From: a virus | Taxonomy: Duplodnaviria > Heunggongvirae > Uroviricota > Caudoviricetes | Virus record (IMG/VR): IMGVR_UViG_2698536454_000011 | Strand: one strand, 5' to 3' | DNA: 4,020 nt | Shown here: positions 1-4,020 of the stretch, piece by piece | Layout: each line of letters begins with the position of its first letter | How positions within the stretch are numbered: position 1 is the first letter of the stretch | Notes under the pieces: model-generated | The model's input: the letters and a program-made list of their open reading frames with translations, nothing else | The model's database searches: none | Told to the model about the DNA's origin: nothing | Made by a program: the position numbers and the translations under genes

Positions 1-1014
1 CACATCCCACGCCTTGCGCTGTGTGGTCAGGTACGCATTACAGGTGATGCGCGGCTCCGTGCCGCCAAAACCGTCCGGCACCGACTGGTCGCAGTACTGG
101 CCGATGACATACAGCGCCCATTTATCCACATCTGCCGCACCAAGACGTTTCCCCATGCCGTAGCGCGGATGGGTCAGCATATCCCACAGACACCAGGCCA
201 TGTTGTTGCTGTATGCTGGCTTAAACGTTCCGTCCCAGATACCGCTGTATTGCCGCGTCTGCGGGTTATAGTTCGACGGCACCTGCAGAATGCGCCCGCG
301 AAGATGATAATTACGGCTCACCTGCTGGCTGCCGAACTGCTCCGAGTCCACCTGCACGCCGACCAGTGCCGTGTTCGGGTAGCACTGTTTCACATCGATA
401 ATTTCGGTGTATGACGACCAGAGCGTTTTGTTCTGCAGCTGGTCTGTGGTGCTGTCCGGCGTCATCCTGCGCATCCGGATATTAAACGGGCGCGGCGGCA
501 GGTTATCCACCACCACCGAGGCCAGATACTGTGAAGTGGTTTTGCCCTTAATGGTGATGTCTTTTTCTGTCACCCAGCCACCGTTACGTTGTATCTGAAC
601 CAGCAGGCGGACTTCCGACGGATTCCTGTCCCCCTTTGAGGTGGTTTCCACCAGTGCCTGCACACCGAAGGTAAAGCGCAGACGGTCGATATTTGCAGAC
701 GTGATGGTCCGGGTGATCGGCGTGTCATATTTCACTTCCGTACCCAGCACCGTCTCGGAGCCGGAGGATTCAAATCCCTCCGGCGGAGTCTGCTCCTGCT
801 CACCTGCCCGGAACACCACCGTGACACCGGAGATGTTGGTATTCCCCTCAGTGTCCAGCACCGGCGTATTGTTCAGCAGCACGCTTTTTAATCCATCCAC
901 CGGACCTTCAATCGGCCCTTCACTGATGGCATCAATCACACTCAGCAACTGCGTGGATTTCAGGTTGTCCTTCGCTTCGCGCGGGGTATGCCCCTTACTG
1001 CTGCCTTTACCCAT
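1..1014 (-). CDS. J: Tail tip / host-specificity central fibre protein J, N-terminal 338 codons; gene continues beyond position 1 of the window (3' end not in window)
   Basis: Minus-strand frame starting at ATG (plus-strand 'cat' at 1012-1014) reads MGKGSSKGHT..., and the frame is open to position 1, where it reads ...NNMAWCLWDMLTHPRYGM...DGFGGTEPRITCNAYLTTQRKAWDV. Both stretches match lambda gpJ as I recall it. Absent from the ORF track only because it has no stop inside the window. GGAG lies 8 nt upstream of the ATG. Confidence 0.95.
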   Translation of the reverse strand, partial: MGKGSSKGHTPREAKDNLKSTQLLSVIDAISEGPIEGPVDGLKSVLLNNTPVLDTEGNTNISGVTVVFRAGEQEQTPPEGFESSGSETVLGTEVKYDTPITRTITSANIDRLRFTFGVQALVETTSKGDRNPSEVRLLVQIQRNGGWVTEKDITIKGKTTSQYLASVVVDNLPPRPFNIRMRRMTPDSTTDQLQNKTLWSSYTEIIDVKQCYPNTALVGVQVDSEQFGSQQVSRNYHLRGRILQVPSNYNPQTRQYSGIWDGTFKPAYSNNMAWCLWDMLTHPRYGMGKRLGAADVDKWALYVIGQYCDQSVPDGFGGTEPRITCNAYLTTQRKAWDV

Positions 1015-1022
1015 TCGTCATG

Positions 1023-1026
1023 CTCC
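1023..1026 (-). promoter_or_regulatory. Shine-Dalgarno (GGAG) for J
   Basis: Plus-strand 'ctcc' at 1023-1026 gives GGAG on the minus strand, 8 nt upstream of the J ATG at 1014. Confidence 0.55.
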
Positions 1027-1036
1027 ATAAACGACA

Positions 1037-1056
1037 AAACCGCCCGGAGGCGGTTT
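1037..1056 (-). terminator. Perfect 8-bp stem / 4-nt loop hairpin in the I-J spacer, followed on the coding strand by a T-rich tract; candidate attenuator, RNA-stability or partial intrinsic terminator element
   Basis: Plus-strand 1037-1044 'aaaccgcc', loop 1045-1048 'cgga', 1049-1056 'ggcggttt' (exact reverse complement). On the minus strand this reads AAACCGCC-UCCG-GGCGGUUU followed by UGUCGUUUAU and then the J ribosome-binding site. Confidence 0.35.
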
Positions 1057-1074
1057 CACATAAAACATTTTGCA

Positions 1075-1722
1075 TCAGCGACCAATCACCACAACCTGAC
1101 CACCGTCCCCTTCGTCTGCCGTGCTGATCTCCTGAGAAACCACCCGCGACCCCACACGCATTTCACCGTACAGAACAGGCAAAACATTGCCCTGAGCAAC
1201 CATGTTATCCAGTGAGGAAAAATAGGTGTTCTGTTTGCCGTTATCTGTACTGGCTGCCGTGGACGTCCTGGCTTTCGGTGCCAGCATCTGCGCCACACCG
1301 CCCAGGATCATACTGGCCCCTGCCGCATACATGCCCGATACAGCCGCGGCACCCAGCCAGCCCACAGGGTTCCACCATGCCACCGCAATCAACGCCGCCC
1401 CCAGCACCACCTGAAACACACCGCCACTTTTAGCTCCCGCCAGACGCGGCACGATATGGATCACGGCACCATTTGCCAGCGGCTCATTAAGACGGGCAGA
1501 TAATTCGGTTTCACCTGCATCACGCCCGGCAATGCGCACCTGATACCAGCCGTCATTCAGTTTCTGACGAAACGCCGGGAGCTGTGTGGCCAGCGCCCGG
1601 ATGGCTTCGGCCCCCGTTTTCACACGAAGGTCGATGCGGCGGCCAAATCGTTGCAAATCCCCGTAAAGGCAGATGCGTGCCATGCCCGGTGACGCCAGAG
1701 GGAGTGTGTGCGTCGCTGCCAT
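1075..1722 (-). CDS. I: Tail tip assembly protein I (215 aa); ubiquitin-like N-terminal region ending in Gly-Gly, hydrophobic Gly/Ala-rich middle segment, conserved C-terminus
   Basis: ORF-track protein MAATHTLPLASPGMARICLYGDLQRFGRRIDLRVKTGAEAIRALATQLPAFRQKL...TDNGKQNTYFSSLDNMVAQGNVLPVLYGEMRVGSRVVSQEISTADEGDGGQVVVIGR matches lambda gpI at the N- and C-termini as I recall it. Position is between K and J as in lambda. Start lies inside the 3' end of K. GAGG is about 12 nt upstream of the ATG. Confidence 0.93.
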   Translation of the reverse strand: MAATHTLPLASPGMARICLYGDLQRFGRRIDLRVKTGAEAIRALATQLPAFRQKLNDGWYQVRIAGRDAGETELSARLNEPLANGAVIHIVPRLAGAKSGGVFQVVLGAALIAVAWWNPVGWLGAAAVSGMYAAGASMILGGVAQMLAPKARTSTAASTDNGKQNTYFSSLDNMVAQGNVLPVLYGEMRVGSRVVSQEISTADEGDGGQVVVIGR

Positions 1723-2363
1723 TTGTCGGTATACCTCTCTCGTTTGCTCAGTTGTTCAGGAATATGGTGCAGCAGCTCGCCGTCGCCGCAGTAAATAGCG
1801 GCATGATTCGGCACCGATGAACCAAAACAGCACAGCAGCACATCGCCCGGCTGCGCCGCTGACAACGGCACCTGATACAGCCCTGTGGCCTCCAGATTAT
1901 CCAGATAGAGATTCTGACCGTTACGCCACCAGTCATCCCCGCGATGAAAATCCGGCATCTCAATCCCCGCCAGATGGTAAGCATCCCGGAACAGCGTGTA
2001 ACAGTCCGTCACCCCGTGCTCAAAGCGCCGCCCGGTGAGATGCGGCACACAGCGGAATTTATGAATCTCACCCCGGCAGACCAGCCACCACGGCAAATCA
2101 CTCTGCACCTGCAGCCGCCGGTCAGCCTCACTCAGCCAGGGCAGACCACCGGGGTGGCTGTGGACCAGCGCCACAATCTCACCCTGCATTTCTGCCCGCA
2201 GCCAGTCTTCCGGCGACATACGGAAATACGCCTCCGGCTCACCGGAGATATTCACGCAGGGGAAATATCTTTCCCCCTCCGGCGTGCTTACCACGAAGCC
2301 GCACGACTCCGCTGGCGCACATCGCCGGGCGTGCGCCAGAATCGCTGATTCTGTCTGTGTCAT
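1620..2363 (-). CDS. K: Tail tip assembly protein K, long form (247 aa): N-terminal JAB/MPN (JAMM) metalloprotease-like domain plus C-terminal NlpC/P60 cysteine-peptidase-like domain. The classically annotated 199-aa lambda K corresponds to an internal start at 2219
   Basis: ORF-track protein MTQTESAILAHARRCAPAESCGFVV...ALVHSHPGGLPWLSEAD...GVTDCYTLF...PNHAAIYCGDGELLHH... From M49 (MSPEDWL...) onward it matches lambda gpK as I recall it. The stop overlaps I by 103 nt, the same geometry as lambda. The 5' boundary is uncertain between 2363 and 2219. Confidence 0.85.
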   Translation of the reverse strand: MTQTESAILAHARRCAPAESCGFVVSTPEGERYFPCVNISGEPEAYFRMSPEDWLRAEMQGEIVALVHSHPGGLPWLSEADRRLQVQSDLPWWLVCRGEIHKFRCVPHLTGRRFEHGVTDCYTLFRDAYHLAGIEMPDFHRGDDWWRNGQNLYLDNLEATGLYQVPLSAAQPGDVLLCCFGSSVPNHAAIYCGDGELLHHIPEQLSKRERYTDKWQRRTHSLWRHRAWHASAFTGICNDLAAASTFV

Positions 2364-2368
2364 GGGAT

Positions 2369-3067
2369 TTACTGCGAAAGTTTGTTAATGGAAAGGAAGC
2401 CGCCAAAGTTGCCGACATTATTGCGAAACTTACAGCCACTCAGGCATTTGCTGCATTTATCCTTCGTGATATCGGACGTCGGCTGGTCATATTCATCCGC
2501 GACCGCCGGACCGTTATAACCGCACTCATCACCGCGATAGGTCCAGGTGCAGGTATTAGCCAGCATGATGCGCCCCGGAAAAACGGCACCATCCGTTTCA
2601 GTCGGCGTGGACAGTACAAAGGAGGCACTGACCGCGCTCAATTCGCTGCACTGCTCGATGCGCCAGCGGCTAATCACCTCCTGCTCCGGATCGGCGTCGC
2701 TGTTTCCGTTGACGAAGTTCACCGCATCCAGAAAACGGGCGTAAACCTTACGCCGGACCACCGTTCCGCCGACCAGACTCTGCAGATCTTCCGCCATCCC
2801 GGTGACCATACCGTGCAGGTTAGAAACCGTCAGTGTCGGACGGGCAGCACTGCCCTTGCCGTTCAGTTCAAATCCTGTCCCCTGAATGGGGTATGCCTGA
2901 TACTGCCGCCCCTGCCAGGTAACCGGCTCACCTTTTTCGTTCTGCTCATTACAGAAAAAATAACGTTCACCACCGACCTCTGTCAGATCGATTTCCCAGA
3001 GCACCACCTGGGCTGACTGAGTGAGGCGTGTCGTCTCATGATGTGTTTCCTGTGGAATATCCTGCAT
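2369..3067 (-). CDS. L: Tail tip assembly protein L (232 aa), with C-terminal cysteine cluster (iron-sulfur cluster-binding in lambda gpL)
   Basis: ORF-track protein MQDIPQETHHETTRLTQSAQVVLWEIDLTEVGGERYFFCNEQ...ANTCTWTYRGDECGYNG...KDKCSKCLSGCKF...LSINKLSQ matches lambda gpL as recalled, with the same length. GGAGG is 5 nt upstream of the ATG. Position is between M and K. Confidence 0.95.
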   Translation of the reverse strand: MQDIPQETHHETTRLTQSAQVVLWEIDLTEVGGERYFFCNEQNEKGEPVTWQGRQYQAYPIQGTGFELNGKGSAARPTLTVSNLHGMVTGMAEDLQSLVGGTVVRRKVYARFLDAVNFVNGNSDADPEQEVISRWRIEQCSELSAVSASFVLSTPTETDGAVFPGRIMLANTCTWTYRGDECGYNGPAVADEYDQPTSDITKDKCSKCLSGCKFRNNVGNFGGFLSINKLSQ

Positions 3068-3072
3068 CAGAG

Positions 3073-3077
3073 CCTCC
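3073..3077 (-). promoter_or_regulatory. Shine-Dalgarno (GGAGG) for L, overlapping the M stop codon
   Basis: Plus-strand 'cctcc' at 3073-3077 gives GGAGG on the minus strand, 5 nt upstream of the L ATG (3067). The M stop TAG occupies 3077-3079. Confidence 0.6.
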
Positions 3078-3406
3078 TATGCCACGACCTGTTCAAAATC
3101 TGCCGTTATGGTTACCCACAGCGCCCCCACGCTTGCCGACCATTTACGACAAACCACCCTGATCGGTTTCCAGTCATAAGGTGGCGTCCACTGAAATGCA
3201 CGGACGCCACCGTGCCGTTCCAGAAAGGCTTTTAAAGATGGGTGTTCACATTTACGAACACGTATCGTCACGCTGTAAGTCGACAACTGGTTATTCAGTC
3301 CCGCCGCACGACGCTGTTCATAACCATCGCCCAGCTTCACTGTCACCACTTTCGGCTCTGATACCACATTCATATCCGGGCGCACTTTCCAGTGAAACGT
3401 CTCCAT
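3077..3406 (-). CDS. M: Tail tip assembly protein M (109 aa)
   Basis: ORF-track protein METFHWKVRPDMNVVSEPKVVTVKLGDGYEQRRAAGLNNQLSTYSVTIRVRKCEHPSLKAFLERHGGVRAFQWTPPYDWKPIRVVCRKWSASVGALWVTITADFEQVVA matches lambda gpM as recalled, with the same length. Its ATG overlaps the H stop codon (TAATG). Confidence 0.95.
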   Translation of the reverse strand: METFHWKVRPDMNVVSEPKVVTVKLGDGYEQRRAAGLNNQLSTYSVTIRVRKCEHPSLKAFLERHGGVRAFQWTPPYDWKPIRVVCRKWSASVGALWVTITADFEQVVA

Positions 3407-4020
3407 TACCGATATGCTCCACTTAACCGACCACCATCACGGGCCTGCTGTTGCATAAAGTCCGCTGCCGCTTTTTTCCCGAGGTCATAAACCGCCTTCA
3501 GGGCAGCCGGACCTATCTGCCCGTTCGTGCCATCGTTATTGATCTCGATGTTGTACTGCGGGGAAAACATCGCCATACCTGAACCCCCAATATCCGCCAC
3601 AACCCCCAGCTTACCGTCAGCACCACGACGCAATGGCAAAATGGCTTCAGGTCCCGCTTCCCCCATCACACCCGCGCCTTTTGCAAAAGCAAAAAACGTC
3701 GGACGGTTAACCACCGTGCCACTGTAACGACTCAAATCAGCAGACTGATAAATCCCCCCATTGGCATTCAGGGAAAGGCTGCTGAGATCAAATCCCAGTA
3801 CACTGCCAATCCCTTTTATCGATTTCATCATGGTTGCCTGCGCCAGGATTTTCGCCATATCTGACAGCACAGAAGAGGTGAAGGATTTGAAATTGAGTTT
3901 GCCGGTAGTGACAAAAGTTGTAAGCGTCGTCTCAGCACCGTCTGGCAGATCCTGAAATTCCTGAGAGAATAGTGGACACCAAATATGGTGGACGCTATCC
4001 ATGAAATCATTAACCGCAGT
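3406..4020 (-). CDS. H: Tail tape-measure protein H, C-terminal ~204 codons; gene starts beyond the window end (5' partial)
   Basis: The minus-strand frame is open from the window edge (4020) to the TAA at 3406-3408. The track ORF 3406..4002 starts at an internal Met; the codons upstream (...TAVNDF-MDSVHH...) contain no stop. Position immediately upstream of M, and the Gly/Ala/Ser-rich C-terminus, are consistent with a lambda-type tape-measure protein. Confidence 0.9.
   Translation of the reverse strand, partial: TAVNDFMDSVHHIWCPLFSQEFQDLPDGAETTLTTFVTTGKLNFKSFTSSVLSDMAKILAQATMMKSIKGIGSVLGFDLSSLSLNANGGIYQSADLSRYSGTVVNRPTFFAFAKGAGVMGEAGPEAILPLRRGADGKLGVVADIGGSGMAMFSPQYNIEINNDGTNGQIGPAALKAVYDLGKKAAADFMQQQARDGGRLSGAYR

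What the first reader, a model, noticed from the sequence alone, without database searches (positions are those of the whole stretch)
1620..2363. K is a two-peptidase fusion: JAB/MPN metalloprotease motif plus NlpC/P60 Cys-His motif
Within one 247-aa tail assembly protein the sequence shows a complete JAMM motif (E19 ... H68-S-H70 ... S78 ... D81) and, further downstream, an NlpC/P60-like catalytic arrangement: Cys121 in 'GVTDCYTLF', His187 in 'PNHAAIY', and a polar His199/His200 in 'GDGELLHH'. This JAB + NlpC/P60 architecture in lambda-type K proteins has been noted in comparative-genomics literature, but the substrates and the role of either peptidase in tail tip assembly are, to my knowledge, not biochemically settled. 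Both catalytic centres appear intact in this copy.
Basis: partly seen in the sequence, partly recalled or inferred. Interest (0 to 1): 0.55.

Follow-up and report, generated by a model that had tools for sequence, protein, structure and literature searches.

The report
Lambda tail protein K: two peptidases
The gene is an ordinary, intact copy of phage lambda's tail-tip assembly protein K, a fusion of a JAB/MPN metalloprotease and an NlpC/P60 cysteine peptidase that has been described since 2003-2006, and whose substrates have still not been shown by experiment.

Summary
Pfam finds Prok-JAB (residues 3-105, E=4.7e-14) and NlpC/P60 (residues 111-224, E=1.7e-12). An AlphaFold2 model is very confident (pLDDT 97.2, pTM 0.91). 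Its two halves match solved JAMM deubiquitinase-type enzymes (PfJAMM1, Rpn11, CSN5, AMSH) and NlpC/P60 endopeptidases (MepS/Spr). Both catalytic sets are among the roughly 20 positions that are at least 90% conserved in 108 homologues of 32-78% identity. The gene lies in the canonical H-M-L-K-I-J tail-tip cluster of a lambdoid phage, 96-99% identical to K of lambda relatives.

The architecture is already published. So is the proposed mechanism: JAB cuts the ubiquitin-like N-domain off the neighbouring protein I after a conserved Gly-Gly (Iyer et al. 2006). Recent work fits this. K is absent from virions, only the C-terminal part of I is seen, and in F-pyocin the N-domain of the I homologue is removed by an unidentified protease.

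One useful by-product: the lambda reference sequence lacks one G in K, so RefSeq and GenBank carry a 199-aa K without the catalytic Glu.

Verdict: real, ordinary, already known; moderate-to-low interest.

The parts
1620..2363 (-). K gene (tail-tip assembly protein K), 247 aa plus stop
   Evidence: ORF list. 99.2% identical to K of phage PhiR47_1. Best match is PHROG 30, 'minor tail protein'. Annotated as K or C40 peptidase in related phages.
2040..2363 (-). JAB/MPN+ metalloprotease domain (residues about 1-108)
   Evidence: Pfam PF14464, residues 3-105, E=4.7e-14. PDB sequence hit 2kks, E=2.7e-6, with the motif residues aligned. Foldseek hits to PfJAMM1 5ld9/5lda (TM 0.67-0.69, rmsd 2.5 A), Rpn11, CSN5 and AMSH.
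2307..2309 (-). E19, JAMM general-base Glu
   Evidence: Conserved in 102 of 108 homologues.
2154..2162 (-). H68-S69-H70, zinc-ligand histidines of the JAMM motif
   Evidence: H68 and H70 are invariant in alignment A2.
2121..2132 (-). S78-x2-D81 of the JAMM motif (D81 is the third zinc ligand)
   Evidence: D81 is invariant and S78 is at least 90% conserved.
1686..2033 (-). NlpC/P60 (C40) papain-like cysteine peptidase domain (residues about 111-226)
   Evidence: Pfam PF00877, residues 111-224, E=1.7e-12. Foldseek hits to MepS/Spr (8xup, 2k1g), 7v6s and 9ubf, TM 0.55-0.69.
2001..2003 (-). C121, catalytic nucleophile at the N-terminus of helix 121-131
   Evidence: DSSP of the model. 102 of 108 homologues have Cys.
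1803..1805 (-). H187, catalytic His at the start of strand 187-193
   Evidence: 103 of 108 homologues have His.
1764..1769 (-). H199 (third triad residue) and H200
   Evidence: H199 is conserved in 103 of 108 homologues and H200 in 98 of 108.
1635..1676 (-). C-terminal helix of K (residues 230-243), encoded inside the overlap with gene I
   Evidence: AlphaFold2 DSSP and pLDDT. Conserved among close relatives. Distant homologues align only to about residue 226.
1620..1722 (-). Out-of-frame overlap of K (3' end) and I (5' end). It is 103 nt if I starts at ATG 1722, or 64 nt if I starts at ATG 1683.
   Evidence: Both reading frames are conserved in close relatives. There is no X_XXY_YYZ slippery site in the overlap.
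1075..1722 (-). I gene (tail-tip assembly / plug protein I), the predicted substrate of K
   Evidence: Pfam PF06805, E=1.3e-24. PDB chains of the lambda tail (8iyk and others) match the family profile.
1420..1683 (-). N-terminal ubiquitin-like domain of I (residues 14-101), ending in G-A-K-S-G100-G101. The predicted JAB cleavage site lies after 1420.
   Evidence: Pfam match to residues 14-97. The G-[AS]-K-x-[GA]-G motif is conserved in nearly all of 9 diverse phages. The ubiquitin-like assignment and cleavage prediction are from PMC1779556.
2369..3067 (-). L gene (context)
   Evidence: Pfam PF05100, E=1.6e-99.
3077..3406 (-). M gene (context)
   Evidence: Pfam PF05939, E=1e-39.
1..1014 (-). 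5' part of the J gene (context), starting MGKGSSKGHT

Best explanation
This is a functional copy of lambda-type tail-tip assembly protein K. It is a cytoplasmic, non-structural maturation enzyme made of an N-terminal JAB/MPN+ zinc metalloprotease and a C-terminal NlpC/P60 Cys-His-His peptidase, modelled as one compact body.

Shown here: both folds, both complete catalytic sets, their conservation, and the conserved position of the gene between L and I.

Inferred mechanism: during formation of the tail-tip initiator (J, then I, L, K), the JAB centre recognises the ubiquitin-like N-terminal domain of protein I. It cuts the peptide bond after the conserved Gly-Gly (I residues 100-101 here). This releases the N-domain, so that only the C-terminal 'plug' part of I stays in the tip. 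This is the same chemistry as archaeal JAMM enzymes that cut the ubiquitin-like SAMP proteins.

The role of the NlpC/P60 centre is the least certain step. Because K is not found in particles, the most likely role is a second cut in a tail protein (I or another tip component), not cell-wall digestion.

Confidence in the identity and architecture is about 0.97. Confidence that JAB processes I is about 0.55. The single figure given covers the whole statement.
For: Architecture:
- Pfam finds both domains above the curated cut-offs.
- AlphaFold2 model: pLDDT 97.2, pTM 0.91.
- Foldseek against the PDB matches the N-half to PfJAMM1 (including 5lda, the complex with ubiquitin-like SAMP2), Rpn11, CSN5 and AMSH, and the C-half to MepS/Spr-type endopeptidases.
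- Conservation in 108 cluster representatives of 32-78% identity: E19 94%, H68 96%, H70 95%, S78 90% (plus T), D81 96%, C121 94%, H187 95%, H199 95%, H200 90%. Only about 20 positions reach 90% (alignment A2).
- Spread: 1762 phage records carry a homologue and 1724 of them cover at least 80% of the query, that is, both domains. 2781 clusters at 50% identity match.

Context:
- H-M-L-K-I-J order is present in 7 of 8 diverse phages sampled, hosted by Mannheimia, Burkholderia, Pseudomonas, Rhizobium, Escherichia (HK022-like), Salmonella and Klebsiella (T1-like).
- The I family ends its N-domain in G-[AS]-K-x-[GA]-G, followed by a hydrophobic stretch, in nearly all of the 9 sequences aligned.
- The best NCBIfam match of the JAB half is desampylase, below threshold.

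Literature:
- The prediction that JAB of K releases the ubiquitin-like domain of I at its C-terminal Gly (PMC1779556).
- K was not detected by mass spectrometry in lambda virions, and only I residues 135-223 were modelled (PMC10721106). The same picture holds in Ur-lambda (PMC12617516).
[quoted passage not shown] The K homologue PA0639 is absent from particles and its deletion gives tip-less tubes. The protease is unidentified (10.64898/2026.02.24.707460).
Against: - No experiment links K to cleavage of I.
- The AlphaFold2 model of a natural K-I fusion (P0034) did not dock the Gly-Gly tail of I into the JAB site. pLDDT was below 50 for the tail and 50-70 for the ubiquitin-like part, with pTM 0.53. 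The alignment for the I part was shallow, so this is uninformative rather than negative.
- The ubiquitin-like fold of I was not independently confirmed here. Pfam and PDB sequence searches found only the I family itself.
- In the virion, I becomes visible only at about residue 134, 33 residues after the Gly-Gly. The real cut site is therefore unknown.
- When PA0640 was expressed alone in E. coli, its N-domain was lost to host proteases (same preprint). A dedicated phage protease is therefore not strictly required.
Confidence: 0.6

Rival explanations
1. The NlpC/P60 half is a peptidoglycan endopeptidase. It would be carried in the tail in small amounts and used at infection to open the cell wall, like the g14 peptidase of the Rhodobacter gene transfer agent. 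On this view JAB has a separate or accessory role.
For: - The closest solved structures of the C-half are cell-wall endopeptidases such as MepS/Spr and C. difficile autolysins.
- There is a weak match to TIGR02219, 'putative phage cell wall peptidase'.
- RcGTA g14 (NlpC/P60 only) degrades peptidoglycan and is needed for tail formation (PMC7296036).
Against: - K was not detected in lambda virions by mass spectrometry and was not resolved in three cryo-EM studies (PMC10721106, PMC12617516). PA0639 was likewise undetected in F-pyocin particles (10.64898/2026.02.24.707460).
- PMC12617516 states that lambda virions contain no such enzyme.
- K has no signal peptide or wall-binding module. Its N-terminus is the JAB domain.
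- The TIGR02219 score is 23.6 against a cut-off of 81.9.
Confidence: 0.15
2. K is mainly a chaperone or scaffold for the J-I-L tip complex, and the peptidase motifs are conserved for structural reasons such as zinc-stabilised folding rather than catalysis.
For: K is classically described as an assembly factor that is absent from the product (PMC12617516, PMC10721106). The F-pyocin authors call PA0639 a 'maturation factor' without invoking catalysis (10.64898/2026.02.24.707460).
Against: The residues conserved include ones with purely catalytic roles: E19 and S78 in JAMM, and the C121 nucleophile with H187 and H199. These are among the very few columns that are at least 90% conserved at a median identity of 38%. 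Inactive MPN- and NlpC/P60 pseudo-enzymes typically lose exactly these residues (general knowledge of the families).
Confidence: 0.1
3. One of the two centres is the unknown protease that converts the tape-measure protein H to H* (removal of the C-terminal piece).
For: PMC12617516 states that it is unknown how H cleavage is catalysed. K is the only protein in the tail gene cluster of this window with peptidase domains found here.
Against: H cleavage occurs after tail assembly, inside the tube (PMC12617516). K acts early on the tip and is absent from finished tails (PMC10721106). Nothing computed here links K to H.
Confidence: 0.08
4. The ORF is a decaying prophage remnant or an annotation artefact with no function.
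For: Many database relatives are truncated or fused ORFs. The lambda reference itself carries a shortened K.
Against: The ORF is intact and full length. It is 96-99% identical to K of plaque-forming phages. All catalytic residues are present. The flanking genes M, L and I are intact, and the parts of H and J inside the window are open.
Confidence: 0.02

Closest known systems
Bacteriophage lambda tail-tip assembly protein K (gpK; 'TAPK' of Iyer, Burroughs & Aravind 2006)
   Same: Same gene. It has the same position between L and I, the same length (247 aa in resequenced lambda PV340536), about 96-97% protein identity to lambda-group K, and the same JAB plus NlpC/P60 architecture (PMC1779556).
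   Different: Nothing of substance. The reference lambda record (J02459/NC_001416) shows a 199-aa K only because one G is missing.
Archaeal JAMM desampylases (PfJAMM1, PDB 5ld9/5lda; HvJAMM1-type, NCBIfam NF041370)
   Same: Same MPN+ fold and a complete JAMM motif. They are the best structural matches of the N-half (TM 0.67-0.69, rmsd 2.5 A). They cut after the C-terminal Gly-Gly of a small beta-grasp protein, which is the reaction predicted for K on I.
   Different: Sequence similarity is far below the family cut-off (29.7 against 130 bits). K is fused to a second peptidase. There are no E1-like conjugation partners in the phage cluster, so only peptide-bond processing of a precursor is expected, not deconjugation.
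NlpC/P60 cell-wall endopeptidases (E. coli MepS/Spr, PDB 2k1g, 8xup)
   Same: Papain-like fold. The Cys is at a helix N-terminus, the His on the following sheet, and a third polar His follows.
   Different: K has no signal peptide or lipobox, is cytoplasmic, and is not found in particles. The substrate is probably a protein rather than murein (inference).
RcGTA g14 / TIGR02219 phage NlpC/P60 peptidase
   Same: It is encoded in a siphovirus-type tail-tip cluster and is required for tail formation (PMC7296036).
   Different: g14 has only the NlpC/P60 domain (150 aa). It is reported to degrade peptidoglycan and is possibly carried in the tail lumen. K scores 23.6 against a cut-off of 81.9 for that family.
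F-pyocin PA0639 / PA0640 pair of Pseudomonas aeruginosa
   Same: These are homologues of K and I in a lambda-like tail. PA0639 is absent from particles and needed for tip assembly. The N-domain of PA0640 is removed during maturation (10.64898/2026.02.24.707460).
   Different: The domain content of PA0639 was not checked here. The paper does not assign the cleavage to PA0639.

Membership tests
JAB/MPN+ (JAMM) metalloproteases | MPN alpha/beta fold | tested here: met
   Pfam PF14464 scores 52.7 bits against a cut-off of 25. Model pLDDT is 97. Foldseek probability is 1.00 to PfJAMM1, Rpn11, CSN5 and AMSH.
JAB/MPN+ (JAMM) metalloproteases | Complete motif E-x(n)-H-[ST]-H-x7-S-x2-D | tested here: met
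   E19, H68-S69-H70, S78 and D81 are present with exact x7 and x2 spacing. They align to the motif of 2kks.
JAB/MPN+ (JAMM) metalloproteases | Motif conserved in the homologues (distinguishes MPN+ from inactive MPN-) | tested here: met
   90-96% conservation of each residue in 108 representatives. H68, H70 and D81 are invariant in A2.
JAB/MPN+ (JAMM) metalloproteases | Zinc binding and (iso)peptidase activity | not testable with these tools
   Needs metal analysis and an enzyme assay.
NlpC/P60 (MEROPS C40) peptidases | Papain-like alpha+beta fold | tested here: met
   Pfam PF00877 scores 47.7 bits against a cut-off of 23. Foldseek hits to MepS/Spr, 7v6s and 9ubf.
NlpC/P60 (MEROPS C40) peptidases | Cys at a helix N-terminus, His on a beta-strand, and a third polar residue 10-12 residues later | tested here: met
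   C121 starts helix 121-131. H187 starts strand 187-193. H199 ends strand 196-199. All three are conserved at 94-95%.
NlpC/P60 (MEROPS C40) peptidases | Export signal or cell-wall-binding module, as in murein endopeptidases | tested here: not met
   The N-terminus is the JAB domain, and no other domain is found. No signal-peptide predictor was run; this is judged from the sequence and the model.
NlpC/P60 (MEROPS C40) peptidases | Cleavage of gamma-D-Glu-mDAP or other murein bonds | not testable with these tools
   Needs a sacculus or muropeptide assay.
Lambda-type tail-tip assembly protein K | Encoded between L and I in the H-M-L-K-I-J cluster | tested here: met
   The window has this order. 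The same order is seen in related and distant phages.
Lambda-type tail-tip assembly protein K | High sequence identity to K of lambda-group phages | tested here: met
   99.2% to PhiR47_1, and 96-97% to other lambda-like phages. PHROG 30 E=3e-164.
Lambda-type tail-tip assembly protein K | Needed for tail assembly but absent from the virion | not testable with these tools
   From the literature only (PMC10721106, PMC12617516).
TIGR02219 phage_NlpC_fam (RcGTA g14 type) | Score above the curated cut-off | tested here: not met
   23.6 bits against a cut-off of 81.9.
NF041370 desampylase | Score above the curated cut-off | tested here: not met
   29.7 bits against a cut-off of 130. This is a resemblance in mechanism only.

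The most novel reading that the evidence does not exclude
K and I together form a self-contained viral 'ubiquitin-like pro-domain' checkpoint. The ubiquitin-like N-domain of I blocks docking of the tip to the tape measure and tube until K's JAB centre cuts after Gly100-Gly101. The NlpC/P60 centre then makes a second cut in the hydrophobic linker, between the Gly-Gly and residue 134 (lambda numbering). That would explain why only the last 90 or so residues of I are seen in virions and why two different peptidases are kept fused. K would then be the unidentified protease of the 'proteolytic checkpoint' reported for F-pyocin.
Probability: 0.3. Interest if true: 0.55.

Novelty: already known. Interest (0 to 1): 0.3.

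Why it matters
The fusion itself is textbook-level comparative genomics, so the finding adds no new kind of system. Its value is practical. It points to one of the few lambda genes whose biochemical role is still open.

Three pieces of evidence now make a 20-year-old prediction directly testable with simple point mutants and mass spectrometry:
- K is absent from virions.
- Only the C-terminal plug of I is present in the tail.
- The N-domain of the I homologue is removed in F-pyocin by an unknown protease.

If the prediction is confirmed, this would be a minimal JAB/ubiquitin-like processing pair working without any conjugation machinery.

The reference-sequence error also matters. Anyone analysing the 199-aa RefSeq/GenBank K will miss the JAB catalytic Glu. 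One review saw only the 'peptidase' domain for that reason (PMC7291167).

Tried and rejected
1. Programmed -1 frameshift from K into I. I is in the -1 frame of K, with a 103-nt overlap. Rejected: there is no X_XXY_YYZ site in the overlap. The K-I fusion proteins in the databases are singletons with different junctions (K214, K217, K222, K227, K241 and K246 joined to various I residues). That pattern fits sporadic indels or assembly errors.

2. AlphaFold2 docking test, using the natural fusion P0034 (K1-222 plus I6-215).
- Two MAFFT alignments were unusable because K tails or the whole NlpC half were placed under I (A3, A4).
- A cleaner alignment (A5) gave a confident K part only. The ubiquitin-like part had pLDDT 50-70, the Gly-Gly tail was below 50, and pTM was 0.53. 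The test was uninformative.

3. Independent confirmation that the N-domain of I is ubiquitin-like. A profile search of PDB sequences and a permissive Pfam scan returned only the I family itself. The low-confidence model shows a beta-beta-alpha-beta-alpha-beta order, which is compatible with a beta-grasp but is not proof.

4. Search for a solved K structure. There is none; the best PDB sequence hit is the stand-alone JAB protein 2kks. No solved chain covers both domains.

5. BFVD comparison. Full-length two-domain matches exist at 28-33% identity, but with rmsd about 14 A. The relative domain orientation is therefore not corroborated by those models.

6. Literature searches for biochemistry of K found none. 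Anantharaman & Aravind 2003 (PMC151301) is not held in the library.

7. Terminator and promoter scan of the window: counts were at chance level and nothing was relevant to K.
Full report
**What is in the window.** All long, family-supported ORFs lie on the - strand and form the lambda tail-tip module:
- the end of H (3406 upward);
- M (3077..3406, Pfam Phage_min_tail);
- L (2369..3067, Phage_tail_L);
- K (1620..2363);
- I (1075..1722, Lambda_tail_I);
- the start of J (from 1014 downward, MGKGSSKGHT...).

The DNA is 96-98% identical to lambdoid coliphages such as PhiR47_1 and mEp460 over positions 2-3920.

**Check of the observation.** The ORF 1620..2363 encodes 247 aa.
- E19, H68-S69-H70, S78 and D81, with the exact JAMM spacing H-x7-S-x2-D;
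- C121 in GVTDCYTLF;
- H187 in PNHAAIY;
- H199 and H200 in GELLHH.

This is far beyond a chance motif match:
- Pfam reports Prok-JAB (residues 3-105, 52.7 bits, cut-off 25) and NLPC_P60 (residues 111-224, 47.7 bits, cut-off 23).
- An AlphaFold2 model built on 97 homologues has mean pLDDT 97.2 and pTM 0.91, so the two domains are modelled as one compact body.
- In that model C121 opens helix 121-131, H187 opens strand 187-193 and H199 closes strand 196-199. This is the canonical NlpC/P60 arrangement.
- Foldseek against the PDB matches the N-half to PfJAMM1 (5ld9, and 5lda in complex with ubiquitin-like SAMP2; TM 0.67-0.69, rmsd 2.5 A), Rpn11, CSN5 and AMSH.
- It matches the C-half to MepS/Spr, 7v6s and 9ubf (TM 0.55-0.69).
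- No solved chain covers both halves with a sensible rmsd. No K structure exists in the PDB by sequence.

**Conservation.**
- A search of 1.84 billion cluster representatives found 2781 relatives at E up to 0.001.
- In 108 near-full-length representatives (32-78% identical, median 38%), only about 20 positions are at least 90% conserved.
- Those positions include E19, H68, S69, H70, S78, D81, C121, H187, H199 and H200. The alignment tool independently lists the same columns.
- Of 1762 phage genomes with a tblastn match, 1724 cover at least 80% of K, that is, both domains.

**Context and likely mechanism.**
- The order H-M-L-K-I-J recurs in 7 of 8 diverse phages sampled, whose hosts are Mannheimia, Burkholderia, Pseudomonas, Rhizobium, Escherichia (HK022-like mEp235), Salmonella and Klebsiella (the last two T1-like phages). 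Sometimes a small inserted gene lies between K and I.
- The neighbouring protein I has an N-terminal domain of about 90 aa (Pfam PF06805).
- In nearly all of the 9 diverse I sequences, that domain ends in G-[AS]-K-x-[GA]-G. The final Gly is invariant.
- This motif is followed by hydrophobic segments and a C-terminal domain. In this window the Gly-Gly is I residues 100-101 (1420..1425).

Iyer, Burroughs and Aravind (PMC1779556) identified this domain as a ThiS/MoaD-type ubiquitin-like beta-grasp. They described K as JAB plus NlpC/P60. They proposed that JAB releases the ubiquitin-like domain by cutting at its C-terminal glycine.

Later structural work fits that proposal:
- K is not detected in lambda virions by mass spectrometry, and only I residues 135-223 form the lumenal plug (PMC10721106). 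The same picture holds in Ur-lambda, where K's location is called unknown (PMC12617516).
- The K homologue PA0639 is absent from particles, and its deletion gives tip-less tubes.
- The authors state that the cleavage mechanism is unresolved (bioRxiv 10.64898/2026.02.24.707460).

I therefore commit to this model: K is a cytoplasmic maturation enzyme whose JAB centre removes the ubiquitin-like domain of I. The steps differ in how well they are supported:
- Shown: folds, motifs, conservation and synteny.
- Inferred: that I is the substrate, and that the cut falls after the Gly-Gly.
- Open: the job of the NlpC/P60 centre. A second cut in a tail protein seems more likely than murein digestion, because K is not in the particle and has no export signal.

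**Rivals considered.**
- A virion-borne murein hydrolase, by analogy with RcGTA g14 (PMC7296036). The absence of K from particles and a TIGR02219 score of 23.6 against a cut-off of 81.9 argue against it.
- A purely structural chaperone. Conservation of residues with purely catalytic roles argues against it.
- The unknown protease that converts H to H*. The timing and location of that cleavage argue against it.
- A dead prophage ORF. The intact, highly conserved sequence argues against it.

**Things tried that did not help.**
- I used the second structure job on a natural K-I fusion (P0034) to see whether the Gly-Gly tail of I docks in the JAB site. After two unusable alignments, the third gave a confident K part but a poorly defined I part. 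pLDDT was 50-70 for the ubiquitin-like domain, below 50 for the tail, and pTM was 0.53. The test says nothing either way.
- Sequence searches could not link the N-domain of I to ThiS/MoaD directly, so that assignment rests on the 2006 paper.
- A programmed K-to-I frameshift was considered, because I lies in the -1 frame with a 103-nt overlap. There is no slippery heptamer, and database fusions are singletons with scattered junctions.

**By-product: the lambda reference.**
- NC_001416/J02459 lacks one G in K codon 45/46 relative to this window and to mEp460. Translation from the proper ATG therefore runs into a stop, and K is annotated as 199 aa from Met49.
- Independently sequenced lambda records carry the extra base. 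These include PV340536, LC730321 (48,503 bp), KT232076, DE3, imm21 and imm434.
- K is annotated as 744 nt in PV340536.
- The 199-aa form lacks E19 and the first strands of the JAB fold. A 2020 review that analysed it reported only a 'peptidase domain' (PMC7291167).

**Comparison with the known, and verdict.**
- The protein is a member of lambda K, of JAB/MPN+ and of NlpC/P60 on every defining feature that sequence and structure prediction can test.
- It is not a member of the desampylase family or of the TIGR02219 family. It resembles them only in mechanism and context respectively.
- Nothing distinguishes this copy from other K proteins.
- Novelty: already known.
- Interest: modest (0.3). The architecture would not surprise a specialist. 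The finding does point at an old, still open question that is now easy to test.

Noticed in passing
window 2226-2232 (- strand, K codons 45-46); lambda NC_001416 about 14266: The lambda reference sequence (J02459/NC_001416) lacks one G that is present here, in mEp460 and in independently sequenced lambda isolates. RefSeq and GenBank therefore carry a 199-aa K starting at Met49, without the catalytic Glu of the JAB domain. This is most likely an error in the original (1980s) reference sequence, copied into a few later records.
   Followed up: yes
window 1620-1722 (- strand): K and I overlap out of frame by 103 nt (64 nt if I starts at ATG 1683). Annotations of I disagree: 215/223 aa from the first ATG, 200-202 aa from Met14, and 182-190 aa from GTG at 1623. 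In distant phages I starts 1-4 residues before the first strand, which corresponds to Met14. The GTG start used in mEp460 and PV340536 would cut off the first strand and part of the helix of the N-domain.
   Followed up: partly
database proteins P0034, P0274, P0286, P0322, P0116, P0015, P0070, P0080 (K-I) and P0007, P0026, P0032 (L-K): Fused K-I and L-K ORFs occur in public assemblies, and two PHROG families model them (phrog_28576, phrog_30). Nearly all are singletons or very small clusters, with different junctions. This suggests indels or assembly errors in prophages rather than real fusions.
   Followed up: partly
window 1420-1437 (- strand), I residues 96-101: The G-A-K-S-G-G motif at the end of the N-domain of I is conserved as G-[AS]-K-x-[GA]-G in nearly all of 9 diverse phages, with the final Gly invariant. 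It is followed by about 30 hydrophobic residues before the part of I that is visible in virion structures (from residue 134 in lambda).
   Followed up: partly
window 3921-4020: The closest phage genomes match the window only up to about position 3920. The last 100 bases, which lie inside gene H, diverge. This suggests a mosaic recombination junction within the tape-measure gene.
   Followed up: no
window 1039-1058 (between I stop 1075 and J start 1014): There is a perfect 8-bp GC-rich inverted repeat. On the - strand it reads AAACCGCC-TCCG-GGCGGTTT, followed by a T-rich stretch and then the GGAG and ATG of J. It looks like a terminator or attenuator hairpin, but the consensus scan did not flag it.
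   Followed up: no
BFVD hits of the K model: In other phages the two domains occur separately. Examples are JAB-only 'tail assembly/tail component' proteins of Caulobacter phage Seuss and Colwellia phage 9A. NlpC/P60 also occurs fused to very long J-like proteins of about 1480 aa. The two peptidases therefore behave as independent modules of the tail-tip cluster.
   Followed up: no
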